Below are positions 9,674 through 41,848 of a stretch of DNA of 64,000 bases, piece by piece. A program made the position numbers and the translations under genes. The stretch lies in assembly GCA_964360965.1 (NCBI GenBank), contig CAYHYM010000001.1, positions 8,878 through 72,877 of the forward strand. The letters run 5' to 3'. Each line of letters opens with the position of its first letter. Positions within the stretch are counted from its first letter, which is position 1. The notes below the pieces were generated by a model that had not been told where the DNA came from, made no database searches, and saw nothing but the letters and a program-made list of their open reading frames with translations. Source of the DNA: an uncultured Gammaproteobacteria bacterium. GTDB taxonomy: Bacteria; Patescibacteriota; Microgenomatia; Daviesbacterales; UBA10151.

Positions 9674-9693
9674 ATATTCACGTTATCATATGG

Positions 9694-11423: not shown

Positions 11424-11441
11424 AAGGTAGACACATCGGGG

Positions 11442-12119: not shown

Positions 12120-12137
12120 TATTCCAGATTACGCTGT

Positions 12138-13287: not shown

Positions 13288-13310
13288 ATTCTTGTTTAAT
13301 TATAACATAA

Positions 13311-14275: not shown

Positions 14276-14309
14276 AATGATTTATCATTGCCATAATCTG
14301 GATTGATTG

Positions 14310-15164: not shown

Positions 15165-15178
15165 TATAAACCCTAAAA

Positions 15179-15727: not shown

Positions 15728-15813
15728 ACTCTCTCACCTCCTCTCAAAAATCAAAATTTTACTAACCATATTATTGTATCCATAAAAAATAGTGTTAAGT
15801 CAAGATGGCAAAA

Positions 15814-18067: not shown

Positions 18068-18075
18068 ATTTTTTC

Positions 18076-27627: not shown

Positions 27628-28569
27628 TTAGAAAGTTACCTTCCTGGCAGGAAAAAGCAGTTTATAAATTGAGATTATAACATCAATTAAAGTAAAGGTG
27701 GAATCAGGGTGTTCTTTTTGGGGCAGCGCTACCAGCGGAGGTTCTTTTAAAGAAGCCTTAAAGGCTAAAATCTGGGCCTCCAAGTTTTCTATCTGGCTTT
27801 TTTGGGAATCAATAATGGCCTGCATGCTTGATATTTGATTTTGTAAATTTTGCCCCTCTTTTCCCATTTTTAAAAGGGACTGATGTTCATCTGAGCTTAC
27901 CATGGTTAAAAGTACTTGTTCTAATCTGGCAGGGGAGTTGGTGTGAGCCGAAAGTCCAGCTTGATCCGGCTCTCTGCCTAAAACAGTTCTATAATAGCTC
28001 GCGATTACATCGCGTCGCTCTTGTAGCTGCCTTTCATCCATACCACTCACAATCATCTGTTTCCAGTTTAACCAGCCATCACCCGGACAGGCTGTTGATT
28101 GACCGGGCAGTTCTTTGTGGCCTTTGATACTATCCCAAGAAATAAAGCCCACTAGATCCCCAAAATTATTAATAAAAAAATCACAAAGTTTTCTGGCTGA
28201 GTCAAGCTGATCAGCAGTTGGAATTTTACCTGCCATAAAATTACCAATTAAACAAATGCCAATCACTTGATCATTTAAATTGGCCACATTGGCCCGGGCA
28301 GTTGATAAATCACCCACATAATAAACCGTGCCATCTTTACCGATTAAAAAATGATAGCCAATTCCACCCCAGCCATTTGTTTGGATATGAAAACGGGCAA
28401 TATCCAAAGGAGTTTGACTGTCCAAGGCAGCAGTGTGGTGGATGGCCAGGTATTTAACCTGAGAAGGTGTCCTGGTCCAGCTCCAATTATAGGCATCACC
28501 GGGCAGAGTATCTCTTAAATCTATAAATTTATTACCTAAAGAGGGAATGGTTAAATCAATCCTGGCCAC
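27628..28569 (-). CDS. N-acetylmuramoyl-L-alanine amidase (Amidase_2/PGRP domain) with coiled-coil and hydrophobic C-terminus
   Basis: AIHHTAALDSQTPLDIARFHIQTNGWGGIGYHFLIGKDG...GICLIGNF matches the PGRP amidase_2 signature. Confidence 0.75.
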   Translation of the reverse strand: MARIDLTIPSLGNKFIDLRDTLPGDAYNWSWTRTPSQVKYLAIHHTAALDSQTPLDIARFHIQTNGWGGIGYHFLIGKDGTVYYVGDLSTARANVANLNDQVIGICLIGNFMAGKIPTADQLDSARKLCDFFINNFGDLVGFISWDSIKGHKELPGQSTACPGDGWLNWKQMIVSGMDERQLQERRDVIASYYRTVLGREPDQAGLSAHTNSPARLEQVLLTMVSSDEHQSLLKMGKEGQNLQNQISSMQAIIDSQKSQIENLEAQILAFKASLKEPPLVALPQKEHPDSTFTLIDVIISIYKLLFPARKVTF

Positions 28570-28608
28570 GTTGTGGCTATACTAACAAAGACCAATTTCT
28601 CTTGTCAA

Positions 28609-29529
28609 TCAACGATTATTCCCCGAATGAAATGCCTTATGCACATCCTTTAGATGAGCATTGGTGACATGGGTGTATATTTGGGTGGTTTGGATGTTGG
28701 AGTGACCTAACATTTCCTGCACTGAGCGGATATCGGCTCCATTTATCAGTAAATCCGTGGCAAAAGAATGCCTTAAGGTATGGGGGGTGGCTTTGACAGG
28801 AAGACCTAAAGCTTTAACATATTTTTCCACAATTCGCTCAATTGAGCGGGAAGTAAGCCTCATAGCCTCACCGCTGTTTTGGGCATCTATCTTACCCTGA
28901 TACCTGATAAAAAGAGGCTTGAGGGTATCTTTTCTTGCCATCAAGTATTTTTCCAAAAACTCAACTGCAGAATCAGATAAAAAAACTATCCTTTCTTTTC
29001 CACCTTTACCAACAACTCCAAACTCGCGTCTGTTAAGATTTATGGTGTCCCTGTTTAAAGAAGCCAGTTCAGAAACCCGCAGTCCTGTTGAAAAAAGCGT
29101 CTCCAGAATGGCCCTATCCCTTATGCCATCTTTTCTAGATGTATTCGGAGCATCAAGCAGTTGCTTAAGCGAAGCATCATCCAAAATCTTCAAAGGCCTT
29201 GGTTCTGCCTCTCCCAGTTCCACTTTTTCAGGGGATAAAGTTTGGATATCTTGGCGGGCTAAATATCTTAAAAATGCCCGCAGAGCTATCATAAAATAGT
29301 TTTGGGTGACTCTTTTTAAGGATCTTTTGGTCTTTGGATCCTGAAATCTTGCCAGATACAACCTGTATTTTCTGACCAAATTCAAATCTATATCTTTGGG
29401 ATCAATATCATTCGAAAACTGCAAAAATCGTTTTAGATAATGATCGTAGTTTTTAATGGTTAACTGAGAGGCATTCCTCTCCAGCTCCAGATATTCTAAG
29501 AAATCAGTAATTAAGGCAGATAGGTTCAT
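28609..29529 (-). CDS. xerC: tyrosine site-specific recombinase XerC/XerD-like
   Basis: R..HxxR..Y catalytic region HTLRHSFATDLLINGADIRSVQEMLGHSNIQTTQIYTHV. ATG overlaps the upstream gene stop as ATGA (29527-29531). Confidence 0.8.
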   Translation of the reverse strand: MNLSALITDFLEYLELERNASQLTIKNYDHYLKRFLQFSNDIDPKDIDLNLVRKYRLYLARFQDPKTKRSLKRVTQNYFMIALRAFLRYLARQDIQTLSPEKVELGEAEPRPLKILDDASLKQLLDAPNTSRKDGIRDRAILETLFSTGLRVSELASLNRDTINLNRREFGVVGKGGKERIVFLSDSAVEFLEKYLMARKDTLKPLFIRYQGKIDAQNSGEAMRLTSRSIERIVEKYVKALGLPVKATPHTLRHSFATDLLINGADIRSVQEMLGHSNIQTTQIYTHVTNAHLKDVHKAFHSGNNR

Positions 29530-30236
29530 CACAAAAGTGCCAGGCCTAAAATTCCCAGGATGGTTAAGATTGAACCTACTATGGCCAGGGCAAAGGTAAA
29601 CTGCTCTGTTCCTGCCGGGGGAAGAGCCTTTGGCGGCCCAACATAGGGAGCAGTAGTCCCTGAGGGTGTGGCCACACCAACACCAACTCCTGCTCCGGGC
29701 GCGCCAGCAGCGCAAGTGCCAGTCCCTATAGTATAATTTCCATTAACCACTGAGTTTAACACATCAGCCACTATATCCCCCCTTTGCACCACATTAGAAT
29801 CTGAAGTTTTACTTTTATCATTGGAGTCAAAGTCAAATTTAATCTGACTGGCGCCAGTTGGAGCATCATCTTTAACTTTAAACTTAATGCTGGCCAAAGT
29901 TCCAGAACCCAAAAAACCAGTCGTGACAGAGGCCAAGCCTGAAATGGAAACTTTACCGTTGGACTCATCAATGCTATTTCCCGGGTAATCTGCATAAATT
30001 GATCCCACTGACATGGATGAAGCGCTAAACCTGGAAGTATCATATAAAACTATGGCATCAGTGCCATCAGTTTGAACCCCGCCAGTATTTAAAACAATAT
30101 CCAATGAGAAGGTACAGCTTTTATTAAAGGTACCCGAGGAAGGGGACAAAGACAGGGTGGCAGTCTGGGCAAAGGCAACCGGGCTTAATATAATTGTTAT
30201 AAAAATTATAAAAATTATAATTACTATAGTCTTCAT
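29529..30236 (-). CDS. secreted cohesin-like domain protein with C-terminal LPPAG-TM anchor-like tail
   Basis: Signal peptide. Cohesin-like beta-sandwich segment ...AIVLYDTSRF...GTLASIKFKVKDDAPTG. C-terminus KALPPAGTEQFTFALAIVGSILTILGILGLALL. Confidence 0.5.
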   Translation of the reverse strand: MKTIVIIIFIIFITIILSPVAFAQTATLSLSPSSGTFNKSCTFSLDIVLNTGGVQTDGTDAIVLYDTSRFSASSMSVGSIYADYPGNSIDESNGKVSISGLASVTTGFLGSGTLASIKFKVKDDAPTGASQIKFDFDSNDKSKTSDSNVVQRGDIVADVLNSVVNGNYTIGTGTCAAGAPGAGVGVGVATPSGTTAPYVGPPKALPPAGTEQFTFALAIVGSILTILGILGLALL

Positions 30237-30787
30237 GGCAGAATATTTATCTCCAACTGATTAACTTTTTCCAAAATATCTGCTCCAGTGCCTGTTTCAG
30301 TCACATTAGTGTCCCCGGTTTTACCTGGGGTAAAGTCCAATGAAACTTTGGTTAATCCTACAGCTTTGGCCACAAATGTTACTGCAGCAAACTGACCCTC
30401 CGGTATAACTCCGCCTTGCTGGGTGGTAATACCGGAGACAGATACTCTTCCCAAAGTCGCGTCAACCTTATTTTGCGGATAATCGGAAAAAATGGTCCCC
30501 AATACTGTTGGCTGGGCTGTTAATAGTTTTGGGTCATAGGTAATTATCAAGTCCACCCCATCAACTTTTTTGGCCGAGGCGACATTTATAGTAACCAAAA
30601 TTCTCTCCCTCACCCTAAGCTGACTTTTATCAGCGGAGAGGCTGATGGAGGTTTGACTTGTAACAGGTACGGCAACAGTTGATGGAGGAGTTGGTTTAAC
30701 CAAAGACCATCCGGCCCACAAAACTTCTGCCAAAATTACCATACCCAGCACTATAAAAATGTTTCTTTTCACCAGATATTTTTGCAT
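30233..30787 (-). CDS. secreted cohesin-like domain protein
   Basis: Signal/anchor. Cohesin-like ...VDGVDLIITYDPKLLTA...QFAAVTFVAKAVGLTKVSLDF (compare FRYDPNVLEI and VFAKIRATVKS in clostridial cohesins). Confidence 0.5.
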   Translation of the reverse strand: MQKYLVKRNIFIVLGMVILAEVLWAGWSLVKPTPPSTVAVPVTSQTSISLSADKSQLRVRERILVTINVASAKKVDGVDLIITYDPKLLTAQPTVLGTIFSDYPQNKVDATLGRVSVSGITTQQGGVIPEGQFAAVTFVAKAVGLTKVSLDFTPGKTGDTNVTETGTGADILEKVNQLEINILP

Positions 30788-30806
30788 ACCTTTAGATTAA
30801 ACTTTC

Positions 30807-31109
30807 TCAACTGCCGAAGTCAAGGGCGGGCAGTTGAATTAAAGTCGCACCGGGTGAGGGGGAAGGTGATGGACTAACTTGTGCTGACGGAGAAGAGGAG
30901 GGGGCTGTTTCCTTGGTAATTTTTAATTTTACATTAGAGTTGGTAGTTTCTGTGATGACCTGACCTGTATCATTCACAAATTCCACCTTGGGGATAAAGG
31001 CTGCCCGAGGCCTAAAAATTTGGGTCTGACGTACCAAATACAAAGTAGCCGGAATAGCCACCAAGATAATTACAAAGCCTATTAAAATTAATGTTTGTCT
31101 TTTAGTCAT
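30807..31109 (-). CDS. truncated 5' paralog (100 aa) of the 31143-32411 gene; leader plus Pro-Ser linker only
   Basis: First 67 aa nearly identical to the next gene. Contains a 76-nt tract 100% identical to 32215-32291. Confidence 0.4.
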   Translation of the reverse strand: MTKRQTLILIGFVIILVAIPATLYLVRQTQIFRPRAAFIPKVEFVNDTGQVITETTNSNVKLKITKETAPSSSPSAQVSPSPSPSPGATLIQLPALDFGS

Positions 31110-31142
31110 TAACTTACCCCCTTATAGATTAACCGACTCTTT

Positions 31143-32411
31143 CTACAGTGTCAACCTTTTACTTGTTCTCATCACATTATCAAAGTCTCCATGGATATCC
31201 CACCAATTTCTCAATTTTTTACCCTGATATGTTTTAGTGTTATTTTTTCCCGGCATGTTTTGCAGCATCCAAATTTGATAATTCAGTGCAGAGTTATTAT
31301 TTATCGGATCTATATCCTGACAACCCCAAATTTGACAACTAATATCTGTCAGCTGACCTAAAGTATCCGGATTCCAATCCAGACAATCAGATTTTTGGGG
31401 GGTTGGATTATTCCTGTCATATTCTGATCTGGCATTTGGTGGATTGTGCGCTGAACCGCACCTGCCATTCACCCCCAAAGTCTGCGGGAAATTTGGTCCC
31501 TGGAATTTATCTCTGTATAAACTTTTATCAACAGCATCAATTTCTGCCTCTATTTGATGTCCCCAAGACTCCAAAGCTTCTGCAGTAAACCTTTGATAAT
31601 TAAATGTGTACACACGATAAGTATTTGCACAAATTGGCATATCATTCTCTCCGCCGCTATTTGAGATATCCCCAAACGGCCCTGACATTTTTGATTCATA
31701 AATATCAAGATAGGGGTGACTGTCTGCTTTTGGCGAACCCTGATAACCCCAAAGCCATACCTCTTTTACCCCCTTACTGTCAACATAGTCGCAAATGTTG
31801 TGAGTTTGCATGATGCCCCGGTAGTCAGGGTAGGTTGGTTTATCCAACCGGGCTTTAATCGGTACTGCCTGCAGGTATTCTTTGGTATCAACGATTGTAT
31901 AACGGAGAACCGGTTTTGCATTCGGATCTTTATATCCCAAATATGTGCTGGCTTTCTCCAAAGATATTTTGAGCTGGCTGGTCACATCATCAGTTCTTTT
32001 TTTGATCAGTTCATATGAATCACCAATATCTCCTGTCACAGTAATATCAATACACTGCTGTTGGGGATTTAAGGAACAGGGAACAGAAGGAAAATATTTA
32101 ATCAGCAACACATTTATATTAAAACTTGTATCCAAGCCTGGTTGGAAAGTTGGAGAAGGGGATGGAGATGAAATTTGTGTGGGAGAAGGACTAGGAAAAG
32201 TTGTCACTGCTTCTTTGGTAATTTTTAATTTTACATTAGAGTTGGTAGTTTCTGTGATGACCTGACCTGTATCATTCACAAATTCCACCTTTGGAATAAA
32301 AGCTGCTCTGGGTTTAAAAATCTGAGTCTGCCTGACCAGATACATGGTGGCAGGAATGGAAATAAGAATAATGACGAAGCCTATGAGAATAAGTATTTGT
32401 TTTTTCGTCAC
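31143..32411 (-). CDS. secreted protein: conserved leader, Pro-Ser linker, C-terminal Cys-containing domain of unknown function
   Basis: Leader MTKKQILILIGFVIILISIPATMYLVRQTQIFKPRAA, linker SPSPTQISSPSPSPT, then a 300-aa domain with no assignable family. Confidence 0.5.
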   Translation of the reverse strand: MTKKQILILIGFVIILISIPATMYLVRQTQIFKPRAAFIPKVEFVNDTGQVITETTNSNVKLKITKEAVTTFPSPSPTQISSPSPSPTFQPGLDTSFNINVLLIKYFPSVPCSLNPQQQCIDITVTGDIGDSYELIKKRTDDVTSQLKISLEKASTYLGYKDPNAKPVLRYTIVDTKEYLQAVPIKARLDKPTYPDYRGIMQTHNICDYVDSKGVKEVWLWGYQGSPKADSHPYLDIYESKMSGPFGDISNSGGENDMPICANTYRVYTFNYQRFTAEALESWGHQIEAEIDAVDKSLYRDKFQGPNFPQTLGVNGRCGSAHNPPNARSEYDRNNPTPQKSDCLDWNPDTLGQLTDISCQIWGCQDIDPINNNSALNYQIWMLQNMPGKNNTKTYQGKKLRNWWDIHGDFDNVMRTSKRLTL

Positions 32412-32428
32412 TTTTCACTTTTCCCTTA

Positions 32429-34306
32429 TCACTTTAACAATATGCTGGCCGTTTGAGGAGGTATTGGTCCCCAAGCGCCACTTTCAAAAAACTGCACATA
32501 CGCTGACTTTAATCCTGGTCCACCTGTTAAAGTCAGATCCAAAGTGAAAACTGTTGCTGTACCCATATCACTTTGGGCTAAAACAGTGGCAAAATTAGGA
32601 TCAAAGGAAACCCTGAAAGGCAGCAGGCCTGAAGGCACAGCAGAGGCGGTGGCTGTGGGGGAGGCTGAAGAAGTTGCCACCGGCGAGGCAGATGCAGTTG
32701 CCACAGGTGATGCGGCAGGACCACCTACAGGGGGTTCTTTTGGTAGAGGGGGAGAGAACTGCTCATCAGATTGGTTGATATTCTGCCTCATACAGGCATA
32801 ATCAATGGAATTAATCCTGCCATCCCCATTAAAATCACCTGTTTTGACCACGTCTTTTACCAAACTCCACTGGCGGGTTAATTCTGCCCGATCAAAAGCA
32901 TTTATTTTTCCATCAGCCTTGATGGCTGGAGCAATATCACCAACCAGCAAAGTTACAGCCTCCAAATTCTTGGTACCGGTTTTGGTTTCAAATTCCACTT
33001 TTTTAGAGAGGGTATTGGGTGCTTTAATAACCAGGGCATACTTTTTATTTTTCTCCAGCTTTGGTGTAAAACCTGTCACTTTGCCATCTTTGTCCAGTTT
33101 GACTGTTTGTTCCAGAACCGGCTCCGGGTTTTCCGACTCGGCGCTGACCAGTACATTGGCAAAAATCTTCACTAACACATTATCCACTGCCAAATTCCCG
33201 CCAGCGCTCTTACATTGGGTTAGAGCGGCAAAGGTGACAGTGGTAGTGCCCACCGAACAGTCGGCTCTGGCAGTTTTGCTGTCATCACGGGTCAGCTCCA
33301 CATCATTTTTGCCTTCCAATTTTTTATCCAAAATAGCTGTCACCACCCCTGTTGATTCATTCCAACTCAAAACTTCCGCATCAGTTCCACCCACCTTAAC
33401 TTTGCCTTTACCTTTGGGGCCAATATTGGTACCGGTGATGGTGATGCTGGTACCGGATCCGGAAATGGCATGAGTACAGCTGGCCTCAGAAATAGCAGGA
33501 TTGGGGATAAAGTTGATCATCCGATCTCTTCTTGAAATAACACCAGTATTTGATATAAAGAGGGCATGAATAGTATTTCTGCCAGGTTTGGTTAAGGTAT
33601 GGGGTATCAGCTTGGGATGAGTATCATAAAGTTGAGCGCCTTTATCTGCGCAAGAGGTAGCAGTAATTGGCCCTTTATCAGATATAAAGAAACAGGCAGT
33701 AGAAACAGGTGGAGTTGGGGATGGTGATGGGCTAGGTGATGGACTGGGACTTGGTGAAGGTGAAGGAGACGGTGAAGGAGACGGAGCCTGGTTGACTGTC
33801 AGGGCAGAAGGGGAAACAGACAGGGTTTCCAATGATAAATCTGATTTAACATTTTTCAGCAAGGAGGTATTCAGTATATCAATGCCATACTGATTGGGGG
33901 ATTGGGATGTAAACACAAGTTCTACAAACGAGGTAGTAACTGCCGCAGGCAATGTAAAGCTGGCTGCGGTGTCCAATTCTCCAACCAGTTTAATCTGGCC
34001 GTTTAAATTGATCTGGGCCAGATTTTGGTCTCCATCGCCCTCCAATACATCAGATTTTTTGCCAACTTTGTAGGTAATGCTTTTCAGCTTAGCCTTAACT
34101 GGATCAAATTTAACATTAATTTGATACATCCTTATCTTTAAGGCGGCAGTTGAAGTAAGCTGAGCATTGACTGTGAAATCCTGCCCTGCCGGCGCTACCA
34201 AGGCAGGCGGATTAAATGAGGAAGAAACTGTCTGGCCAAATGCGGCCCTGGGCAAGCCTAGTGTAGCAAGTAACAATAAAATAATAACAGTAAATTTTCT
34301 TTTCAT
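32429..34306 (-). CDS. large secreted protein with cohesin-like modules, (SP)n linker, Ig-like region and dockerin-like repeat
   Basis: Signal peptide ending PRAAFGQ. (SP)x20 linker. Dockerin-like loop DFNGDGRINSIDYACM plus KADGKINAFDRAEL. Confidence 0.55.
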   Translation of the reverse strand: MKRKFTVIILLLLATLGLPRAAFGQTVSSSFNPPALVAPAGQDFTVNAQLTSTAALKIRMYQINVKFDPVKAKLKSITYKVGKKSDVLEGDGDQNLAQINLNGQIKLVGELDTAASFTLPAAVTTSFVELVFTSQSPNQYGIDILNTSLLKNVKSDLSLETLSVSPSALTVNQAPSPSPSPSPSPSPSPSPSPSPSPTPPVSTACFFISDKGPITATSCADKGAQLYDTHPKLIPHTLTKPGRNTIHALFISNTGVISRRDRMINFIPNPAISEASCTHAISGSGTSITITGTNIGPKGKGKVKVGGTDAEVLSWNESTGVVTAILDKKLEGKNDVELTRDDSKTARADCSVGTTTVTFAALTQCKSAGGNLAVDNVLVKIFANVLVSAESENPEPVLEQTVKLDKDGKVTGFTPKLEKNKKYALVIKAPNTLSKKVEFETKTGTKNLEAVTLLVGDIAPAIKADGKINAFDRAELTRQWSLVKDVVKTGDFNGDGRINSIDYACMRQNINQSDEQFSPPLPKEPPVGGPAASPVATASASPVATSSASPTATASAVPSGLLPFRVSFDPNFATVLAQSDMGTATVFTLDLTLTGGPGLKSAYVQFFESGAWGPIPPQTASILLK

Positions 34307-34311
34307 ACTTT

Positions 34312-35238
34312 TTAACGCTTCCAGATATTCAAATCATCAGCGTCTATTTGACCGTCACCGTCAAAATCAGGGTTAACAGAGACAGGTATTTTACCTAAGT
34401 TTACCGCAGTCAGCCAGTAAAGATAATCATTTTCATCTTTCACTCCGTTACCATCAGCATCACCTAGGGTTCTTGATGGTCTGTTGCACCAGCTATTTTT
34501 ATCCTGGGTAGAGGGCACAATGTTGTAGATAGTTGCCGGAAGAGAACATTGTATCGGACCGCTTCCAGGAGGTAGTCCGTAATCTACCCCTGTCAGTTTG
34601 GTAAACTGGCAAGGAGAGGAGCAGCTGTTATCGGCTTGACACCCACATCCTGTCACAGGCGGGAGCGGAGAAGGCGAAGGAGAAACAGCAGGCCCTGTCA
34701 CCATATATCTCCCTTCAATGTTTTCTGCAGTTATTAAAGTTGTTTCCGCTCCGGAGGCCACCAGTTCAAAGGCAGGGGCAAACCTGACAGTTGATACCCC
34801 TCCTGCCCTGGCCTTAAACTTGAGCGTTCCCAAAATCAGAACTCCTGAAGAGATGGGATCTTTCGACTTTCTTACAGCAGTAAAGCGGAACTGGCCCAAG
34901 GGATCATCCACAGTATTTCTTAAAGTGTCAAAACTTGAAAGAGCAGGGTCAAATGTGACAAGCTGTAAGATATTTGTGTTGTAGGCAAGCTGTATGTTTA
35001 CTCCGGTAATATCCTGGTTTCGTGCATTCATCTTCAGCTGCACCTCAAATTCTTCTCCCGTATTTTTGCTGGATTCAGCAGGAGAGAGAGACAGTGTTAC
35101 TGCGCCAGTAGGCACCGCAGCCCTACTTCTTAGGTCCTGAATCTGCCTGACCAGATATAAAGTTACTGGTATGGCCACAATCAGAATAGCCACTACCATA
35201 AACGGTATAATTTTTATCAATTTATCTCTATCTATCAT
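34312..35238 (-). CDS. cohesin-like + Pro-Ser linker + type I dockerin protein
   Basis: Leader ...VTLYLVRQIQDLRSRAA. Cohesin-like core. C-terminal dockerin pair DADGNGVKDENDYLYWL and DFDGDGQIDADDLNIWK, with Ca-loop D/N at positions 1, 3, 5, 9, 12. Confidence 0.6.
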   Translation of the reverse strand: MIDRDKLIKIIPFMVVAILIVAIPVTLYLVRQIQDLRSRAAVPTGAVTLSLSPAESSKNTGEEFEVQLKMNARNQDITGVNIQLAYNTNILQLVTFDPALSSFDTLRNTVDDPLGQFRFTAVRKSKDPISSGVLILGTLKFKARAGGVSTVRFAPAFELVASGAETTLITAENIEGRYMVTGPAVSPSPSPLPPVTGCGCQADNSCSSPCQFTKLTGVDYGLPPGSGPIQCSLPATIYNIVPSTQDKNSWCNRPSRTLGDADGNGVKDENDYLYWLTAVNLGKIPVSVNPDFDGDGQIDADDLNIWKR

Positions 35239-36809
35239 AGGTAACCATTTTTCCAGATACTGAAATCCACGGTATTGATTGAGTCGTCGCAGTTGAAGTC
35301 TGCCTTTTTACTCTTGGTTAAGGAATGTAACTCCCTGAACCAGATGTTAAAGTCTGAAAGATCCACATCACCATCTTTGTCAGCATCACCCTGGGAGGGG
35401 ACACAAACCGCTGGTGTTGGGGAAGGGGAAGGAGAGGGAGAAGGGGAGGGGGAAACTGTAGGTTGAGGAGCTACACAAAAACCTCTATTTGGTTGATTGG
35501 CTTCACAAACAGGTTTTTGGGGGTCAACACAAAAAGAAGCATCTGTTTGACATTGACTGCCATGACATATCAGACAATCCCTAGCCTTGGAGGCTGAGAC
35601 GCATTGGGCATCAATACATTTATCTTTAAATTCCCTAAAATCAATTGACACCTTTCTTCTACATCTGTCATCCTCATCATCTTTGGTGGCTGCAAAATTA
35701 TCACAATTAGGATCTTCTGTCTGTGTTTTGGGGTTATTTCTACAAACTCCACACTGGCCAAAGTTATAGGTATTTAGGATGGGGGTAGTGGTAGTTACAC
35801 AGGCAAAACAAGATTGGCCTGAAACAGCACAAGTCAGCTGGCTGGCTGGAACCCCTTGATAAGCCGGGGTATCAGAAGATGAAAGGCAACCAATAGTACC
35901 GGCTGGTTGGCACTGATATGTCCTTTCAGCTCCAAAAAGATTGCCTGCGGATACTCCCACAGGACAAGTGGGAACACCTAGGGCCCCACCGGGTAGGGTG
36001 GTAAAAACAATCAGACTAAGGTTACACTGCCCACCAAATTCCTGACTTTTATCATTAAACATTCTCCACCTGAAGGGATATGTCCCAGCAGTTGTGGGCC
36101 CAATTGTGACATTAAAGTCCTTTTGATTGCCTGGTTCAATTGTGCTACCTACACTAATATTGGTTTTATCTGGCTTGAATGCCAACTCAGCACCTGAACC
36201 ACCAGTGAATCTTAAGGAATAATTTGATTGCCAGTTGTTAGTAACACCCCCAGTAGGGTCTTGAGTATTTCTTAAAATCATGGTGATGTTATAAGATTTG
36301 TTAATCACAACAATACCAGGGTGTTTATCATAAGGTTGGCCATCAATGGTGACGTCTGTACAGTCTGCCCTGTCTGCACCACCCACACCTACATTGCCAG
36401 ATGAAGGTGAAGGTGGAGGTGGTGGTGGTGAGGCTGCAGCGGGACACTGCTTTGGTTCTGTACAACTGGAAGCATCACACTGCGGTTGATCACCTGGATC
36501 ATTAGGATCGGCCACACCGTCACTATTGATGTCCAGGGTGTTATCCGTATAAGTGGCAAAAGCCGTTAGATAACAACCGTTGGCATCTACAGATCCACAA
36601 CTACCAACCGGCTGACCAACTTGTGGCTGGTTTGGCCTATTACACGGGAAAAGACCATCTGGGGCAGGACTCATAATCTCTGCTGCCTTTGATTTAAGTT
36701 GAGTTTGTTGTTGGACCAGTCTTACTCCCACCAGAAGCCCCACAGCCAAAACCCCCAAAATCAACAGGGCAATGATATTTCTTTTAGATAATAATTTTGT
36801 TGCTTCCAT
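35235..36809 (-). CDS. Cys-rich secreted protein with Pro-Ser linker and C-terminal dockerin
   Basis: Leader ...VRLVQQQTQLKSKAA. PPPPPPSPSS and PSPSPSPSPSPTP linkers. Dockerin pair DADKDGDVDLSDFNIWF and DFNCDDSINTVDFSIWK. Confidence 0.55.
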   Translation of the reverse strand: MEATKLLSKRNIIALLILGVLAVGLLVGVRLVQQQTQLKSKAAEIMSPAPDGLFPCNRPNQPQVGQPVGSCGSVDANGCYLTAFATYTDNTLDINSDGVADPNDPGDQPQCDASSCTEPKQCPAAASPPPPPPSPSSGNVGVGGADRADCTDVTIDGQPYDKHPGIVVINKSYNITMILRNTQDPTGGVTNNWQSNYSLRFTGGSGAELAFKPDKTNISVGSTIEPGNQKDFNVTIGPTTAGTYPFRWRMFNDKSQEFGGQCNLSLIVFTTLPGGALGVPTCPVGVSAGNLFGAERTYQCQPAGTIGCLSSSDTPAYQGVPASQLTCAVSGQSCFACVTTTTPILNTYNFGQCGVCRNNPKTQTEDPNCDNFAATKDDEDDRCRRKVSIDFREFKDKCIDAQCVSASKARDCLICHGSQCQTDASFCVDPQKPVCEANQPNRGFCVAPQPTVSPSPSPSPSPSPTPAVCVPSQGDADKDGDVDLSDFNIWFRELHSLTKSKKADFNCDDSINTVDFSIWKNGYL

Positions 36810-36812
36810 ATT

Positions 36813-37211
36813 TTATATTCCAGGTGATGGTGATGGACTAGGTGATGGACTGGGACTTGGTGAAGGTGAAGGGCTTGGACTGGGGCTGGGAGACAGTGAT
36901 GGAGAGGGGGATGGGGATGGTGGGAGTGGCAAATTAATTCCTTCCTCAGATTTTAAGAAAGGTGAATCCAACACCACATTTATTTCAGAATCTGTAGATG
37001 TACATTCACCAACAGCCGGACAATTAACACCTGATTTTCCTTCTATTGCTCTAAAGGAGATCGGATCACCACCGGCTGCTTTGGATTTTAATTGCTGTTG
37101 GGTTTGGACCAGTTTAATCCCCAAAGGAATGGCCACAATCATAATGGCCAAAATCAAAAATGAAATGATGTTCTTCCTGGAAAAAAGACTGTTGTCTGAA
37201 GAATAATCCAT
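36813..37211 (-). CDS. short leader + (PS)n-only protein (possible truncated paralog)
   Basis: Leader ...GIKLVQTQQQLKSKAA, then (SP)x18 to the stop. The plus-strand ORF 36772-37206 is its antisense image. Confidence 0.4.
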   Translation of the reverse strand: MDYSSDNSLFSRKNIISFLILAIMIVAIPLGIKLVQTQQQLKSKAAGGDPISFRAIEGKSGVNCPAVGECTSTDSEINVVLDSPFLKSEEGINLPLPPSPSPSPSLSPSPSPSPSPSPSPSPSPSPSPSPGI

Positions 37212-37244
37212 TACCCTTACTCTAAAGCAAAAGATTGAAGTTTG

Positions 37245-38720
37245 TCAATCTGTTTTTAACTTGGTCAAATCTACAATCACAAAATCATGGGTCTGATGGA
37301 TAATCTTATATTTTTCCATGACTTGCTTTGTCTGATCATCAAGAGCCACAGACACATAATGGGTGGCCCCCAGCTTAATCAGCTCGGTCACACTCAGGTA
37401 AACAGAAGACCAGCCAGGTCGATCCAGCTGGTATAAAAAAGCGGTATTTCTCTCAAATGGAGCAATCACCCTGGCTTCTTTGGGTAAAATTTCTCTGGCC
37501 ACATCTCCAGCTTTCATAATCTCACCATGATTAATCTGATAAAAACCCCTCACCTGATACCAGCCAAAAGCAAAGGTTAGAGCAATCAAAGCTAAGGTAG
37601 CAGGAATGGTGATCCAGGCAGTCAACCATCTGCCGGAGGCAAAAATTAGAAAATCTACTGAGCGGGCCATAAACACAGCCAAAATCGGCACCAGGGGAAT
37701 CTGATAATAATCATGTTCCACATTGCCGCGAGCCAAAATCAGCACATATAAACTTAAACCCAGCAGCCACCAGTGGAAAAACCAGGTTTGACCTTGTTTC
37801 GGCTTCAAAAATACTCCCAGGGTAGCCAGGAAAAAACCAGCCACAGTTAAAATTTCCCTGCCCAGTCTTTCTGCAATAATCCAATGTAAGAAAGCTCCTT
37901 TGTAGCGGATGTTGTCACCATTAAAAAGCCAGGCGGCAGAAGGGATGCCTTCAGGATATTGCAGCATCCATAAACGCCATGATAACAGAGGTACAGTGGT
38001 CAAAGCAACCAGCAGATACAGCTTAAGGTTAGTCAGGGCCCGCAATCCCCGGTAATGGAAAGATAAATATGCCATCGGCATCAATAGATAAAGCGTGTAT
38101 GGTTTGGTGAGAATGGCCACATTCAAAAACAACACAGTCAAAACAAAAAAAAACCAGGTTTCTTTTTCCAAAAACCTGATAAAAAAATAAAGGGCTGACA
38201 AAGAGGCAAAGATCATCATCGGCTCCGGCATAAACACTCTGGAGAAATAAATATTATACGGTAAAAAGGCCAAAAAGAGAGCTGAGATAAGAGCAACCCT
38301 GATCCCTAAAAATTTTTTGACCAGAAGATAAAGGAGAATAATTGACAAAAGTGAGAAAACAACTGACATTTGCCGGCCATAGATTACCTCCACCTGTCCC
38401 ATGATCAGATATACCACTGCCACCAGACCGCTATAGATGGGAAATTCCACAAAGCGGAAACGCTGCGGGTTGGGACGGGAATCGTGGGTAACAGGAGCCA
38501 TGTCATCATATTTAGGATGCAAAAAATCAAAGCCTTCTTTGATAAAATTTCTGGACACAGCTGCCGTGTCAACCTGCCTCCAGGAATGCCAGTCACCCAG
38601 GGGAATGTTGATCCGGTACTGGCGGATCCAAAAGGCCCCAATTAAAATGATTATCAAAAAGAGCAGGGGACTGGAAAAAACCTTTTTAAGTACCATAAAG
38701 CCATTATAGCAGCAAGACAA
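37245..38720 (-). CDS. GT-C fold glycosyltransferase (PMT_2 / ArnT-like, family 39/83-type), polytopic
   Basis: About 12 TM helices. First extracytoplasmic loop carries acidic YDD...PQRFRFVEFPIYSG. Topology and size typical of protein O-mannosyl/ArnT-like transferases. Confidence 0.55.
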   Translation of the reverse strand: MSCCYNGFMVLKKVFSSPLLFLIIILIGAFWIRQYRINIPLGDWHSWRQVDTAAVSRNFIKEGFDFLHPKYDDMAPVTHDSRPNPQRFRFVEFPIYSGLVAVVYLIMGQVEVIYGRQMSVVFSLLSIILLYLLVKKFLGIRVALISALFLAFLPYNIYFSRVFMPEPMMIFASLSALYFFIRFLEKETWFFFVLTVLFLNVAILTKPYTLYLLMPMAYLSFHYRGLRALTNLKLYLLVALTTVPLLSWRLWMLQYPEGIPSAAWLFNGDNIRYKGAFLHWIIAERLGREILTVAGFFLATLGVFLKPKQGQTWFFHWWLLGLSLYVLILARGNVEHDYYQIPLVPILAVFMARSVDFLIFASGRWLTAWITIPATLALIALTFAFGWYQVRGFYQINHGEIMKAGDVAREILPKEARVIAPFERNTAFLYQLDRPGWSSVYLSVTELIKLGATHYVSVALDDQTKQVMEKYKIIHQTHDFVIVDLTKLKTD

Positions 38721-39788
38721 ATTAGACAGTATCTTGCAAAATCATACATTAAACAAAAACGCCGTAATTAATATTGTCCGACAAGGACCAGTATATCTGT
38801 GAGTCAGTATATCAGTGTTTCAGTGGATTAAAAATATTTGATAATTTGATAATATGGAAGTGTGATAAAAGATGTGAATATAAACTTTTGTCAAAAAGAA
38901 TAAACTCCTTGCACAAATACTGGCGCTTTTAACACCGATACACAGATATACTGAAAGATACACTGAAACTCCGAGCCCCTAGAAGGGCCTAAAAACGGCT
39001 GGTTAGGGGAGGGCCGCTATCTGCCATCATCTAGTTTAGGCTGTCAGGAAGGGCCAAATTGGTAGTTAGTAGTTTGTAGTTGGTAGTTGGTAGAAAACAG
39101 CAAATTTTTGAAGGGAAATATGAGAAATTAGGCACACAAAAATGCTTGATAAAAAACTTATGCCTTTTATAATTAAATTTATCCTGAGCAAGCCTGAAGG
39201 ACTCCTCCCTAATCCCACTTCTCTGACATCGCATAACCATGATTGTCCGACATTATTATATTTGGGGAAGAATGCGGAAAAGAGAGAATAGCCTTGGTCT
39301 TCTGATACGTGAGTAAAGAATCTCTAGATTACTCTCATGATCCTTCGCTAACGCTTGGGATGACAACTAGAAGAGCACCTCTCCTCCAAGAGGCTTCGGG
39401 TATTCTATGTAAGAAAGAATAAGCAATTATATGCACTAACTGACAGATTACTTTTAATCTTCAAGCGTCCATCCTTTTGCCGTAGGCAAAAGTGTACAGA
39501 GCTAATAACGAGAGTAAGATCGTGTGAGTCCTTAGAGTACGGAGTGCTATTGTGACAACGATCACAATAGTAGCGCAGTACTCGGGGGCTCGTAGTGCAC
39601 GAACATCGTGAGAGCACGAAGAGACCCATAGTTTTCCACATTTGAACTTGGCAAATATATAAAACTATATCACCTATAGTTTTCACGAAATATCTCATAA
39701 TTTTTCACAGTTCGACTTCGCTCACTGCAGGCACTCCTCTACTTCCAATTTGTCTTAACAATCCAATTCTCCATTGTCAATTGATTCT

Positions 39789-41179: not shown

Positions 41180-41848
41180 TTATTCCAAAATAAGATGTTC
41201 AATCAGTTTTAATTTTCTTTGATAGTCAGCTTGATCAAATACAAAATGTTTATATTTTTCCCTGCTTCCAAACATATCCAACACTAAATTTGGTTCTAAA
41301 AAACCATCATTACCAGTAAGATAATTTGAAAAGGATGACCACGGATACTTTTCTAATTCACCAACAGTTCTAACTATAAAATTTGTATAAGGATTTAGGT
41401 GTATATATCTTGAAACATGAATAAACTGTTCATCAGTCTCTATCCTCTTGGCTTTAAATTGATCTAAAAATAAGGAGCCGTCCCGTTCATTCCTGGTATT
41501 ATGATAACGAGTATAACTATTTTGGAAATTACCTATAAATTTTGAAATACCATCCTCCATTTTCTGCTTTAACAAGAAATGAAAATGATTGGGCATTAAA
41601 CAAAAACAAATAATATCAACTAATTTTTCTGCCTGGTTCGTAATTTTGGTAATCTCTTTTTGTTTATCTTGTTCCAACTCCAAAAATTTAGATAATCTAA
41701 TAGGTGGGCTTGAAACTCTATAAAATTCAATTGCCAAAATTGCCCTTTGGTATTCTTTTTTTGTGGTAAAGGTGGGTTGCTTATTTATACCTCTGTTGTA
41801 AACATGGTAGATCTCATCCGTTACAAGTGGAATTTTTCTACCTGGCAT
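41180..41848 (-). CDS. REP-associated tyrosine transposase (RAYT) paralog
   Basis: HuH motif LMPNHFHFLLK. Tyr region SRYIHLNPYTNFIV...YPWSSFSNY. About 50% identical to the 11442 copy. Confidence 0.8.
   Translation of the reverse strand: MPGRKIPLVTDEIYHVYNRGINKQPTFTTKKEYQRAILAIEFYRVSSPPIRLSKFLELEQDKQKEITKITNQAEKLVDIICFCLMPNHFHFLLKQKMEDGISKFIGNFQNSYTRYHNTRNERDGSLFLDQFKAKRIETDEQFIHVSRYIHLNPYTNFIVRTVGELEKYPWSSFSNYLTGNDGFLEPNLVLDMFGSREKYKHFVFDQADYQRKLKLIEHLILE

What the first reader, a model, noticed from the sequence alone, without database searches (positions are those of the whole stretch)
29529..38720. Cohesin-dockerin style surface-protein cluster (9 paralogous secreted proteins + GT-C glycosyltransferase)
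Nine consecutive minus-strand genes encode secreted or anchored proteins. Their modules recombine like a cellulosome-type assembly. Four proteins carry cohesin-like beta-sandwich segments (29529, 30233, 32429, 34312), with ITYDPKLL and FAAVTFVAKAVG echoing clostridial cohesin FRYDPNVL and VFAKIRATVKS. Three carry textbook type-I dockerin duplicated Ca loops, with D/N at positions 1, 3, 5, 9 and 12: DADGNGVKDEND / DFDGDGQIDADD (34312), DADKDGDVDLSD / DFNCDDSINTVD (35235), DFNGDGRINSID (32429). The modules are joined by long (SP)n linkers. No glycoside hydrolase domain is recognisable, so this looks like a non-cellulolytic cell-surface scaffold. In a streamlined, probably episymbiotic genome it is a candidate host- or partner-attachment apparatus. 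The 34312 protein carries both cohesin and dockerin, so the system could self-assemble.
Basis: partly seen in the sequence, partly recalled or inferred. Interest (0 to 1): 0.8.

Follow-up and report, generated by a model that had tools for sequence, protein, structure and literature searches.

The report
Cohesin-dockerin surface cluster in groundwater CPR bacterium
A tiny groundwater bacterium carries a tight operon of secreted proteins built from cohesin and dockerin "plug-and-socket" modules with no cellulose-degrading enzymes, so it most likely docks its own secreted proteins onto its cell surface; the modules are real, but this kind of system has already been reported in this bacterial group.

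Summary
Nine tightly packed minus-strand genes (29529-38720) encode eight secreted or anchored proteins plus a GT-C (PMT_2) glycosyltransferase. The title's "nine plus GT-C" is off by one.

Cohesin and dockerin modules:
- Cohesin passes Pfam's threshold in three proteins and is weak in a fourth.
- Foldseek on the model of the 34312 protein returns cohesins as its top 26 hits.
- All three dockerins are supported, with unequal strength.
- All six calcium-loop motif matches in the window fall in these three proteins.
- No glycoside hydrolase or carbohydrate-binding module was found.

New here:
- Related groundwater contigs repeat the gene order: dockerin cargo, cohesin-dockerin adaptor, N-anchored cohesin, then signal-peptide cohesin ending in LPxxG plus a hydrophobic tail (sortase-like).
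- A related contig fuses the 35235 and 32429 proteins exactly at their (SP)n linkers, which shows linker-mediated module shuffling.
- The 31143 protein carries an unannotated, highly conserved domain with a weakly adamalysin-like fold and an invariant HxxE...H signature. Relatives carry dockerins, and one sits among dockerin-tagged proteases.

Cohesin and dockerin proteins are already reported in Microgenomates, there read as cellulosomes. I file this as a new member of a known kind. Physical pairing and the host-attachment role remain untested.

The parts
37245..38720 (-). g9: polytopic GT-C glycosyltransferase of the PMT_2/ArnT/Agl23 type. It is the first gene of the block. The true start is probably the ATG at residue 9.
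   Evidence: Pfam PMT_2 51.4 bits and PMT 32.2 bits. NCBIfam Agl23-like 43.3 bits, below its cutoff. Multiple hydrophobic segments. No homologue lies next to any other fetched cluster.
38789..38974 (.). Candidate promoter and operator upstream of g9. Copies of CAGTATATC(A/T)GTG in direct and inverted orientation flank a sigma-70-like site (TTCACA-18-TATTAT, 38878-38849, minus strand).
   Evidence: Repeats. Four of the six window matches to the motif cluster here, against 1.7 expected window-wide. Promoter-like site. This is consensus-level evidence only.
36813..37211 (-). g8: 132-aa protein with the shared leader, a small Cys-containing segment and an (SP)n tail. It is a paralogue of the N-terminus of g7.
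   Evidence: BLASTP against g7: 34% over 136 aa, E 2.6e-16. It is conserved as a separate ORF in L050 at 66% identity.
35235..36809 (-). g7: dockerin-bearing cargo. Order of parts: leader, Cys-rich region with one extra calcium-loop-like motif, Ig-like domain (residues 190-261), Cys-rich region, (SP)n linker (453-464), dockerin.
   Evidence: Pfam N_BRCA1_IG 28.7 bits. Only one real homologue among 5.8 billion proteins, P0133.
35247..35390 (-). g7 dockerin (residues 474-521). Two calcium loops, DADKDGDVDLSD and DFNCDDSINTVD, each followed by D-F-x-I-W.
   Evidence: Dockerin_1 scores 21.5 bits in the whole protein and 26.0 bits as an isolated module, above the 22.9 threshold.
34312..35238 (-). 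g6: adaptor with leader, cohesin, short S/P linker, Cys-rich module and dockerin.
   Evidence: A g6-like gene followed by g5-like and g4-like genes in L053 shows synteny.
34684..35106 (-). g6 cohesin module (residues about 45-185).
   Evidence: Pfam Cohesin 25.9 bits, above threshold. Model strands span 48-181 with block pLDDT mostly about 60-90. Foldseek against the PDB gives cohesins as the top 26 hits.
34315..34650 (-). g6 Cys-rich module plus dockerin (residues 197-308). It behaves as a conserved mobile dyad, loosely comparable to X-dockerin units.
   Evidence: Forty-one invariant columns across five proteins that otherwise differ. P0124 scores Dockerin_1 28.3 bits and P0123 22.9 bits at the aligned position. 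PDB phmmer hit to dockerin-like repeats in 8x39 (deposited as 'Serine protease'), E 0.008. Nineteen metagenome loci carry the dyad.
32429..34306 (-). g5: adaptor with signal peptide, divergent cohesin (about residues 22-148), (SP)n linker (169-202), TIG/IPT domain (272-342), beta-rich region, dockerin (455-514), P/A-rich linker and a small C-terminal domain.
   Evidence: Pfam Dockerin_1 34.8, TIG 25.3 and Cohesin 18.3 bits. The isolated dockerin scores 41 bits with two stretches. A cohesin HMM built without g5 scores it 26.8 bits. PDB hits to DocCel5 and CelS dockerins.
31143..32411 (-). g4: leader, a short conserved segment, an S/P linker and a conserved 330-aa domain with no Pfam or NCBIfam match (31146-32129). 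The domain is a putative metal-dependent hydrolase.
30807..31109 (-). g3: 100-aa protein with the leader, a short conserved segment and an S/P-rich tail. It duplicates the N-terminus of g4.
   Evidence: 82% identical to g4 residues 1-88. A 204-nt direct repeat at 82% identity. It is conserved as a stand-alone ORF in L050, where no g4 follows.
30233..30787 (-). g2: anchor protein with an N-terminal transmembrane helix and one cohesin (Pfam match at residues 53-162; 30302-30631).
   Evidence: Pfam Cohesin 31.1 bits. Transmembrane segment. Orthologous 'g2-type' genes sit at the same position in L050, L054, L055, L056 and L060.
29529..30236 (-). g1: anchor protein with signal peptide, one cohesin, a G/A/P-rich linker, LPPAG (residues 205-209) and a C-terminal hydrophobic helix (213-235; sorting-signal region 29532-29624).
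   Evidence: Pfam Cohesin 32.7 bits. C-terminal transmembrane segment. Six distinct g1-type cohesins end in LP(P/K/Q/T)(A/S)G plus a hydrophobic stretch.

Best explanation
This is a small, non-cellulolytic cohesin-dockerin surface-display system of a Microgenomates-type (CPR/Patescibacteria) groundwater bacterium, encoded as one operon.

Shown:
- Four proteins carry one cohesin each, and three carry a C-terminal dockerin.
- Every protein has a secretion or anchor signal.
- The modules are joined by (SP)n linkers.
- The same gene order recurs in other groundwater contigs.

Inferred mechanism:
1. g1 and g2 are the cell-bound sockets. g1 is held by a C-terminal LPxxG-plus-hydrophobic signal, either as a sortase substrate or as a simple membrane anchor. 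g2 is held by an N-terminal transmembrane helix.
2. g5, g6 and g7 are exported. The leader shared by g6 and g7 (hydrophobic helix, then YLVxQxQxx[RK][SP][RK]A) is probably a long cleavable signal peptide cut after the Ala. g5 has a classical signal peptide instead.
3. Their calcium-dependent dockerins plug into cohesins. g5 and g6 also carry a cohesin, so they can extend the assembly by one or two tiers. g7, which is Ig-like and Cys-rich, is terminal cargo, possibly an adhesin.
4. g4 is a secreted or tethered putative metallohydrolase. Its orthologues elsewhere carry dockerins.

The net effect is that secreted proteins stay on the surface of a very small cell instead of diffusing away. The neighbouring GT-C may O-glycosylate the Ser/Pro linkers; that step is speculative. 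The (SP)n-coding repeats act as recombination points that reshuffle modules between genes.
For: Modules:
- Pfam Cohesin and Dockerin_1 hits.
- Cohesin fold for the g6 model.
- Calcium-loop motifs occur only in these three proteins in the window.
- Custom HMMs find no other cohesin or dockerin in the 64 kb.

Genomic coupling:
- Scanning metagenomes with the g6 Cys-rich-plus-dockerin dyad gave 19 loci.
- The order dockerin cargo, cohesin-dockerin adaptor, N-anchored cohesin, signal-peptide cohesin recurs in L054, L055, L056 and L060. Variants occur in L066, L068 and L070. L053 is syntenic for g6-g5-g4.
- Pfam confirms the module calls in L054.
- L027 holds five dockerin proteins and three cohesin proteins, one carrying both modules, as near-consecutive plus-strand genes. 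L005 has a g4-type dockerin protein directly followed by a 178-aa cohesin protein.

Anchoring:
- Cohesin proteins in these clusters carry an N- or C-terminal transmembrane segment.
- LPxxG plus a hydrophobic tail occurs in six distinct g1-type proteins.

Leader cleavage: in L054, L060 and L066 the g5-type adaptors have ...[KR]SKA|TGE exactly where window g5 has AFG|QTV, and the first cohesin strand follows in both. In the alignments the ...SRAA leader end of g6 falls next to the AFA|Q site of g1.

Shuffling:
- The L050 protein equals g7 residues 2-447 joined to g5 residues 201-624, with the junction in the (SP)n linkers.
- A 50-nt stretch is 96% identical between the g5 and g8 linkers.

Cargo type:
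- Many g4-family relatives are fused to Dockerin_1.
- In L027 the g4-type dockerin protein sits among dockerin proteins carrying S8, M11/M12-like and M10 protease domains.

Precedent: expressed cohesin and dockerin proteins were reported in Ca. Shapirobacterales.
Against:
- The g6 dockerin scores only 12.7 bits alone and is modelled at low confidence (block pLDDT about 56-66).
- The g5 cohesin is below Pfam's threshold.
- g1 has LPPAG rather than LPXTG and lacks a positively charged tail. No sortase gene was found among the roughly 60 window ORFs scanned.
- Leader cleavage is inferred from alignment only. If the leader stays uncleaved, g6 and g7 would be membrane-tethered and their dockerins would act in cis or between cells.
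- g4 has no dockerin in this window.
- No homologue of the GT-C was found in any other fetched locus.
- Most cargo domains in related clusters have no recognisable function.
Confidence: 0.65

Rival explanations
1. It is a genuine cellulosome, a polysaccharide-degrading complex. This is how cohesin and dockerin proteins of Microgenomates have been read in the literature.
For: Bell et al. describe expressed cohesin and dockerin proteins in Ca. [quoted passage not shown] They cite cellulosomes in Ca. Roizmanbacterium. Some g4-family relatives are fused to F5_F8_type_C or lectin-type modules that could bind glycans.
Against: - No glycoside hydrolase, CBM, polysaccharide lyase or carbohydrate esterase domain is found in any of the nine proteins.
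- None is found in the cluster proteins scanned in L027, L005 and L054.
- Each protein has a single cohesin, so there is no multi-cohesin scaffoldin.
- Where cargo is identifiable (L027), it is proteases.
Confidence: 0.06
2. The main job is attachment to a host or partner cell. The dockerin, Ig-like and Cys-rich proteins would bind host-surface structures in trans, and the cohesin-dockerin tiers would form an extensible tether.
For: - The organism is a CPR-type bacterium. The identical contigs come from samples labelled as a 0.1 um fraction.
- The window also holds a full type IV pilus operon.
- g7 has Ig-like and Cys-rich modules typical of adhesins, and g5 has a TIG/IPT domain.
- g6 and g7 have very few homologues, as expected for fast-evolving surface-contact proteins.
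- A dockerin-domain protein is essential for epibiotic growth of the Saccharibacterium Southlakia.
Against: - Nothing here identifies a host ligand.
- The conserved part of the operon is the pair of self-anchored cohesins, which points to cis display.
- The identifiable cargo in L027 is enzymatic.
- This rival is compatible with the best explanation. It concerns what the displayed cargo does.
Confidence: 0.2
3. The cohesin-like and dockerin-like modules do not pair with each other. The beta-sandwiches are generic surface domains, and the calcium loops only stabilise or bind carbohydrate. The cluster is then just a set of unrelated surface proteins.
For: - From my own knowledge (Peer et al. 2009), many non-cellulosomal cohesin- or dockerin-like modules have no known partner.
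- Scores are modest, between 18 and 35 bits.
- The g6 dockerin is weak on its own.
Against: - The two module types co-occur in the same operon in independent contigs, in a conserved order.
- Neither type occurs elsewhere in the 64-kb window.
- Two proteins carry both modules.
Confidence: 0.12

Closest known systems
Simple or anchoring cellulosome components of Firmicutes, for example the single-cohesin, sortase-anchored ScaE of Ruminococcus flavefaciens and Coh-Doc adaptor scaffoldins (from my own knowledge; structures 2zf9, 4iu3 and 5m2o appear)
   Same: - Cohesin beta-sandwich and type-I-like duplicated calcium-loop dockerins.
- Single-cohesin cell-anchoring proteins with an LPxTG-like C-terminal signal.
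- Adaptor proteins carrying both a cohesin and a dockerin.
- Ser/Pro/Thr-rich linkers.
- Genes clustered together.
   Different: - No glycoside hydrolases or CBMs, and no multi-cohesin primary scaffoldin.
- The host is a CPR bacterium.
- One anchor uses an N-terminal transmembrane helix.
- The cargo is orphan Cys-rich or Ig-like proteins and, in relatives, proteases.
- The sorting motif is LPxAG or LPxSG.
Non-cellulosomal cohesin-dockerin systems: the Peer et al. 2009 survey, Clostridium perfringens toxin/glycosidase complexes (cohesin-like modules 2vo8, 2jh2 and 2w1n), and the 'scaffoldin-containing' non-cellulolytic microbes of PMC11557425
   Same: The same module pair is used outside cellulose degradation. 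These systems have few cohesins and unusual dockerin fusions. Peptidase-like dockerin fusions are mentioned in PMC11557425.
   Different: - That survey does not mention Patescibacteria.
- Here there is a conserved four-gene order and a lineage-specific signal-peptide-like leader.
- A Cys-rich module is permanently attached to one dockerin type.
Cohesin and dockerin proteins reported in Microgenomates: Ca. Shapirobacterales (Bell et al., bioRxiv 10.1101/2021.08.21.457207, also PMC9123182) and Ca. Roizmanbacterium (Geesink et al. 2020, Environ Microbiol 22:726, cited there; the paper itself could not be read)
   Same: The same bacterial supergroup and the same habitat (groundwater). Cohesin and dockerin domains were detected, and the proteins were expressed in one case.
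   Different: Those reports interpret the proteins as cellulosomes for carbon degradation. The evidence here argues for a non-cellulolytic display system. It adds gene order, anchors, linker recombination and the g4 domain family.
Adamalysin/ADAM-type metzincin catalytic domains (for g4 only)
   Different: - There is no HExxH motif and no metzincin third-His signature.
- The invariant signature is H285-x-x-E288 ... C318-G-x-x-H322-x-P-P-N326.
- No sequence-level link to any PDB, Pfam or NCBIfam family was found.

Membership tests
Cohesin (Pfam PF00963) | Profile score at or above the gathering threshold (24.1 bits) | tested here: met
   g1 32.7, g2 31.1 and g6 25.9 bits. g5 scores 18.3 bits (E 0.0028), below threshold. 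A cohesin HMM built from related clusters without g5 scores it 26.8 bits, so three are clear and one is probable.
Cohesin (Pfam PF00963) | Flattened beta-sandwich (jelly-roll) fold of about 140 residues | tested here: met
   The g6 model has 12 strands between residues 48 and 181. The top 26 Foldseek PDB hits are cohesins, with E down to 1.6e-9 and target-normalised TM 0.66-0.79 for the best ranks. Only g6 was modelled.
Cohesin (Pfam PF00963) | Binds a dockerin | not testable with these tools
The only support is indirect: co-clustering of cohesin and dockerin genes.
Type I dockerin (Pfam PF00404) | Profile score at or above the gathering threshold (22.9 bits) | tested here: inconclusive
   - g5: 34.8 bits, or 41.0 bits isolated. 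Met.
- g7: 21.5 bits in the full protein, 26.0 bits isolated. Borderline met.
- g6: 12.7 bits. Not met alone, but aligned homologues P0124 (28.3) and P0123 (22.9) meet it.
Type I dockerin (Pfam PF00404) | Two repeated segments, each a 12-residue calcium loop with D/N at positions 1, 3, 5, 9 and 12, followed by a helix | tested here: met
   g6 and g7 each have two canonical loops. g5 has one canonical loop and one degenerate loop with an insertion (GDIAPAIKADGKINAFD), read from the sequence. The g6 model has helices at 269-280 and 300-307 after the loops, at low pLDDT.
Cellulosome | Dockerin-borne glycoside hydrolases or other CAZymes | tested here: not met
   No GH, CBM, PL or CE domain in any cluster protein, nor in the cluster proteins scanned in L027, L005 and L054.
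Cellulosome | Primary scaffoldin with several cohesins | tested here: not met
   Each of g1, g2, g5 and g6 has a single cohesin.
Sortase substrate (cell-wall sorting signal) | LPXTG-type motif, then a hydrophobic stretch, then a positively charged tail, with a sortase in the genome | tested here: inconclusive
   - g1 has LPPAG plus a 23-residue hydrophobic end and no charged tail.
- Relatives have LPKSG, LPQSG or LPTSG plus a hydrophobic stretch with an R or K near the end.
- No sortase was found among the window ORFs scanned. The rest of the genome was not available.
GT-C / PMT_2 glycosyltransferase (PF13231) | Profile score above threshold and polytopic membrane topology | tested here: met
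   PMT_2 scores 51.4 bits against a 26.1 threshold. Multiple hydrophobic segments. The acceptor substrate is unknown.
Zincin/metzincin metallopeptidase (for g4) | HExxH zinc-binding motif on the active-site helix | tested here: not met
   The family has H285-Q-I-E288 on helix 275-304. H285, E288 and H322 are each conserved in at least 246 of 249 members. There is no HExxH.
Zincin/metzincin metallopeptidase (for g4) | Catalytic-domain fold | tested here: inconclusive
   [not shown]

The most novel reading that the evidence does not exclude
Groundwater Microgenomates share a conserved cohesin-dockerin operon. It has two self-anchored cohesin sockets, one of them wall-linked through an LPxxG signal, a Coh-Doc adaptor, and interchangeable dockerin cargo. 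The operon would work as an extracellular degradative or attack platform rather than a cellulosome. It would dock proteases and a large, previously undescribed HxxE...H metallohydrolase family (about 1,500 cluster representatives, no Pfam entry) on the surface of an ultra-small cell, to harvest peptides or breach a host envelope. Ser-Pro linkers would drive rapid module exchange.
Probability: 0.3. Interest if true: 0.7.

Novelty: new member of a known kind. Interest (0 to 1): 0.45.

Why it matters
CPR bacteria are tiny and auxotrophic and mostly depend on other cells, yet little is known about how they organise their surface. A docking system that keeps secreted proteins on the cell would suit such an organism. 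In the only genetically tractable relative, a dockerin-domain protein is essential for epibiotic growth.

Three results have practical value.
- Published readings of CPR cohesin and dockerin genes as 'cellulosomes', and therefore as carbon-degradation potential, are probably wrong for clusters like this one. That affects metabolic inferences drawn from groundwater metagenomes.
- The conserved gene order, the LPxxG-ended cohesin and the shared leader give concrete, testable handles for working out cell-surface biogenesis in CPR.
- The g4 domain is a large, strongly conserved and entirely unannotated family with a plausible metal site. It is a good target for biochemical characterisation.

Tried and rejected
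- PDB sequence searches with g4, alone and as a family profile, found nothing usable.
- Foldseek against afdb50 was not installed. The PDB Foldseek run on g4 gave only weak hits.
- g7 and g6 have very few homologues (3 and 6 hits). The g6 alignment was therefore shallow and its model only moderate (pLDDT 63.6).
- I tested whether the GT-C belongs to the system by conservation. No g9 homologue occurs in any of the fetched loci, so its role stays speculative.
- I looked for a sortase, a dedicated signal peptidase or another processing enzyme among about 60 window ORFs. None was found. The only leader peptidase is the prepilin peptidase of the pilus operon.
- I considered that the shared leader is a type IV pilin-like signal. 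Many g4-family relatives start with QKG followed by a hydrophobic stretch. The window proteins lack the Gly, so I did not adopt this reading.
Taxonomy therefore rests on best hits to Daviesbacteria, Gottesmanbacteria and Microgenomates proteins.
- The Geesink et al. 2020 paper is not in the library.
- An Rfam search of the 1-kb gap upstream of g9 found nothing.
- The promoter and terminator scan found no internal terminators above chance.
- I considered g3 and g8 to be mere pseudogene remnants. I rejected this as the sole explanation, because both are kept as separate ORFs in L050.

Full report
**1. What is there**

Between 29529 and 38720 lie nine minus-strand genes separated by -4 to 33 nt. 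No terminator-like sites occur above chance. In order of transcription they are:
- g9, 37245-38720
- g8, 36813-37211
- g7, 35235-36809
- g6, 34312-35238
- g5, 32429-34306
- g4, 31143-32411
- g3, 30807-31109
- g2, 30233-30787
- g1, 29529-30236

g9 is a polytopic GT-C glycosyltransferase (PMT_2 51.4 bits). The other eight proteins all start with a signal peptide or a hydrophobic leader.

**2. Are the modules real?**

*Cohesin.*
- g1, g2 and g6 exceed Pfam's gathering score (32.7, 31.1 and 25.9 bits against 24.1). g5 scores 18.3 bits.
- g5 scores 26.8 bits against a cohesin HMM built from related clusters without g5.
- An AlphaFold model of g6 (mean pLDDT 63.6; most blocks of the sandwich about 60-90) has a beta-sandwich at residues 48-181.
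- The 26 best Foldseek PDB matches to that model are all cohesins. The best is CaCohA2 at E 1.6e-9, and target-normalised TM is 0.66-0.79 for the best ranks.

*Dockerin.*
- g5 scores 34.8 bits, or 41.0 bits as an isolated module, against a threshold of 22.9.
- g7 scores 21.5 bits in the whole protein and 26.0 bits isolated.
- g6 scores only 12.7 bits alone. Its C-terminal 114 residues align with 41 invariant columns to modules in four other proteins, and P0124 (28.3 bits) and P0123 (22.9 bits) meet the threshold there.
- PDB sequence searches hit solved dockerins or dockerin-like repeats: DocCel5 and CelS for g5, and 8x39 for g6.

*Chance.* The calcium-loop pattern occurs six times in all 249 six-frame ORFs of the window. 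All six are in g5, g6 and g7. Custom HMMs find no cohesin or dockerin anywhere else in the 64 kb.

*Cellulolytic parts.* No GH, CBM or lyase domain is present.

**3. Architecture**
- g1: signal peptide, cohesin, G/A/P linker, LPPAG, C-terminal hydrophobic helix.
- g2: N-terminal transmembrane helix, cohesin.
- g5: signal peptide, divergent cohesin, (SP)17 linker, TIG domain, beta-rich region, dockerin with a degenerate first loop, P/A linker, small C-terminal domain.
- g6: leader, cohesin, Cys-rich module, dockerin.
- g7: leader, Cys-rich region, Ig-like domain, Cys-rich region, (SP)n linker, dockerin.
- g4: leader, linker, a 330-aa domain with no family match.
- g3 and g8: short proteins that duplicate the N-termini of g4 (82% identity) and g7 (34%, E 2.6e-16).

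g3, g4, g6, g7 and g8 share a leader. It is a hydrophobic helix ending in YLV or KLV, followed by xQxQxx[RK][SP][RK]A. The motif occurs in no other ORF of the window. Variants occur on unrelated passenger domains in other CPR proteins.

**4. Related loci**

The window's proteins are found on contigs of ENA assemblies labelled Hain_H51_01um. The label suggests a 0.1 um filter fraction. Best hits point to the Microgenomates group: Daviesbacteria, Gottesmanbacteria and Microgenomates bacteria.

*(a) L050, a contig at 55-66% protein identity.* It carries a g8-like gene, one 891-aa protein, a g3-like gene, a g2-like gene, a g1-like gene and an XerC-like gene.
- The 891-aa protein equals g7 residues 2-447 joined to g5 residues 201-624.
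- The junction lies in the (SP)n linkers.
- Relative to L050, the window has the g7 dockerin, all of g6 and the g5 signal peptide and cohesin as extra material.
- g4 is absent from L050, while g3 stands alone there.
- A 50-nt stretch is 96% identical between the g5 and g8 linkers.

This is direct evidence that the Ser-Pro-coding repeats mediate module shuffling.

*(b) A metagenome scan with the g6 Cys-rich-plus-dockerin dyad* gave 19 loci from Hain-H41 and Hain-H43 assemblies and from several JGI metagenomes.
- L054, L055, L056 and L060 show the order dockerin cargo, g5-type adaptor, g2-type N-anchored cohesin (about 190 aa), g1-type signal-peptide cohesin (about 210 aa).
- L066, L068 and L070 show a variant of that order.
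- L053 is syntenic for g6-g5-g4.
- Pfam confirmed the module calls in L054.
- By my count, about nine of roughly 13 loci with enough flanking sequence have a cohesin gene within 10 kb of the dockerin.

*(c) Anchors.* The g1-type cohesins end in LPPAG, LPKSG, LPQSG or LPTSG followed by a hydrophobic stretch, often with an R or K near the end. This holds for six distinct proteins and resembles a sortase-type sorting signal. The other cohesin proteins carry N- or C-terminal transmembrane helices. In these clusters the cohesins are the cell-bound part and the dockerins ride on exported proteins.

*(d) Leader.* In L054, L060 and L066 the g5-type adaptors carry the leader ...[KR]SKA|TGE exactly where window g5 has a classical AFG|QTV site. 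The first cohesin strand follows in both. In the alignments the ...SRAA end of g6 falls next to the AFA|Q site of g1. I infer that the leader is a long cleavable signal peptide cut after the Ala.

**5. The g4 domain**

g4 has no Pfam, NCBIfam or PDB sequence match. It does have many relatives:
- 223 word-indexed homologues at 47-81% identity.
- 1548 cluster representatives at E<=1e-3, and 461 at E<=1e-30.
- Genome loci labelled Daviesbacteria, Saccharibacteria, Wildermuthbacteria and Ryanbacteria, and also Chloroflexi, Actinobacteria, Nitrososphaera and Polyangiales.

Relatives are fused to Dockerin_1, Big_7, F5_F8_type_C, PG_binding_1 and pilin-like N-termini.

There is no HExxH motif. Instead H285, E288, C318, H322, N326, Y331 and D411 are each conserved in at least 244 of 249 members, with H285-x-x-E288 on the long helix 275-304. 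I read this as a probable metal-dependent hydrolase of an undescribed family. It is not a member of any known peptidase family.

Context agrees with that reading.
- In L027 (a Patescibacteria MAG), a g4-type-Big_7-dockerin protein sits in a run of cohesin and dockerin genes. Its neighbours are S8 subtilase-dockerin, M11/M12-like-dockerin, CARDB-dockerin, M10 matrixin-dockerin, a Coh-Big_7-fn3-Doc adaptor, and two further proteins that the custom cohesin HMM detects and that end in a transmembrane segment.
- In L005 (a Microgenomates MAG), a g4-type protein in which the custom HMM finds a dockerin is directly followed by a 178-aa cohesin protein scoring Pfam Cohesin 41.4 bits.

In this window g4 has no dockerin.

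**6. Mechanism**

I commit to the following account, with confidence 0.65.
1. g1 and g2 are cell-bound sockets.
2. g5, g6 and g7 are exported and held by calcium-dependent dockerin-cohesin binding.
3. g5 and g6 add further cohesins and so build tiers.
4. g7 is terminal cargo, possibly an adhesin.
5. g4 is an accompanying secreted or tethered hydrolase.

*Shown:* the module identities, the secretion signals, the conserved gene order and the linker recombination.

*Inferred:* physical pairing and which socket takes which plug, leader cleavage, sortase processing, calcium dependence, and any O-glycosylation of the linkers by g9. The g9 link is the weakest, because no g9 homologue accompanies any other fetched cluster.

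The host-attachment idea is compatible with this account but untested.

**7. Comparison with what is known, and novelty**

Cohesin-dockerin pairs outside cellulosomes are known:
- the Peer et al. 2009 survey and the C. perfringens complexes (from my own knowledge);
- the non-cellulolytic 'scaffoldin-containing' microbes of PMC11557425.

Sortase-anchored single-cohesin proteins (ScaE) and Coh-Doc adaptors also exist in Firmicutes.

Cohesin and dockerin proteins have been reported, and found expressed, in Microgenomates from groundwater. There they were read as cellulosomes (Bell et al., which cite Geesink et al. 2020). A dockerin-domain protein is essential in the Saccharibacterium Southlakia (PMC10633639).

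The finding is therefore a new member of a known kind. What goes beyond the papers I could find is:
- the argument that this is not a cellulosome;
- the conserved gene order and anchor types;
- the shared leader;
- the demonstrated linker-mediated fusion;
- the g4 family.

**8. Scores**

Interest is 0.45. The finding is a correct and well-supported call, moderately surprising to a specialist, and it offers useful testable handles. It is not a new kind of system.

Noticed in passing
window 3744-19788 (minus strand): A complete type IV pilus operon. It has PilB-like and PilT-like ATPases (T2SSE), PilC (T2SSF), a prepilin peptidase A24 (14310-15164), about nine N_methyl pilin or pseudopilin genes, a PilX-like gene, PilM and PilO. 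It lies about 10 kb from the cohesin-dockerin cluster.
   Followed up: partly
window 31146-32129 (g4 residues 95-422); loci L002-L043: A large unannotated protein-domain family: 1548 cluster representatives and no Pfam, NCBIfam or PDB sequence match. It is conserved at roughly 40-65% identity across contigs labelled CPR, Chloroflexi, Actinobacteria, Nitrososphaera and Polyangiales. It has an invariant HxxE...CGxxHxPPN signature and a weakly adamalysin-like predicted fold.
   Followed up: yes
window N-termini of g3, g4, g6, g7 and g8 (e.g. 32301-32411, 35116-35238); P0123, P0126, P0134, L034, L054, L060, L066: A shared N-terminal leader: a hydrophobic helix ending in (G)(V/I)YLV, about 8-10 polar residues (xQxQ..), then [SP][KR]A. 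It sits on unrelated passenger domains in many CPR proteins. Many relatives begin with a pilin-like QKG(I/V/F)xH. No library family describes it. It is probably a long signal peptide.
   Followed up: partly
L050 2684-5359 compared with window 32429-36809: In a related contig one 891-aa protein equals g7 residues 2-447 joined to g5 residues 201-624. The junction is in the (SP)n linkers, and g6 and g4 are absent. In the window a 50-nt stretch of the g5 linker (33717-33766) is 96% identical to one in the g8 linker (36823-36872).
   Followed up: yes
L027 92-16337 (JACZRW010000011, Patescibacteria MAG B106T1L10): A cohesin-dockerin cluster whose cargo is proteases: S8 subtilase-Doc, M11/M12-like-Doc, CARDB-Doc, g4-type-Doc and M10 matrixin-Doc. 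It also has a Coh-Big_7-fn3-Doc adaptor and two proteins that the custom cohesin HMM detects and that end in a transmembrane segment.
   Followed up: partly
window 38789-38974: Copies of CAGTATATC(A/T)GTG in direct and inverted orientation flank a promoter-like site upstream of g9. Four of the six window matches cluster here. This may be an operator for the operon. It lies in a roughly 1-kb gap with no long ORF and no Rfam match, which also contains TTGGTAG heptamer repeats at 39059-39093.
   Followed up: partly
window 11442-12119 and 41180-41848 (minus strand): Two IS200-like Y1 transposase genes (Y1_Tnp, 225 and 222 aa). One lies inside the pilus operon and the other is 2.5 kb upstream of the cluster. 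They were not compared with each other.
   Followed up: no
window 27628-29529 (minus strand); L044, L050: Directly downstream of g1 lie an XerC/D-type tyrosine recombinase and an Amidase_2 peptidoglycan amidase with a DUF4214 segment. The recombinase overlaps the g1 stop by 1 nt. The longest-ORF start at 29715 is an artefact, since gene calls give 306 aa. The recombinase also follows the g1-like gene in L050.
   Followed up: partly
window 36495-36530 (g7 residues 94-105): An extra, isolated calcium-loop-like motif, DINSDGVADPND, lies in the N-terminal Cys-rich part of g7, outside the dockerin.
   Followed up: no
window 23264-23902 (plus strand): A stand-alone Peptidase_C39-like cysteine protease gene (68.3 bits) lies between gyrB and gyrA, flanked by two 183-212-aa ORFs with no family match.
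   Followed up: no
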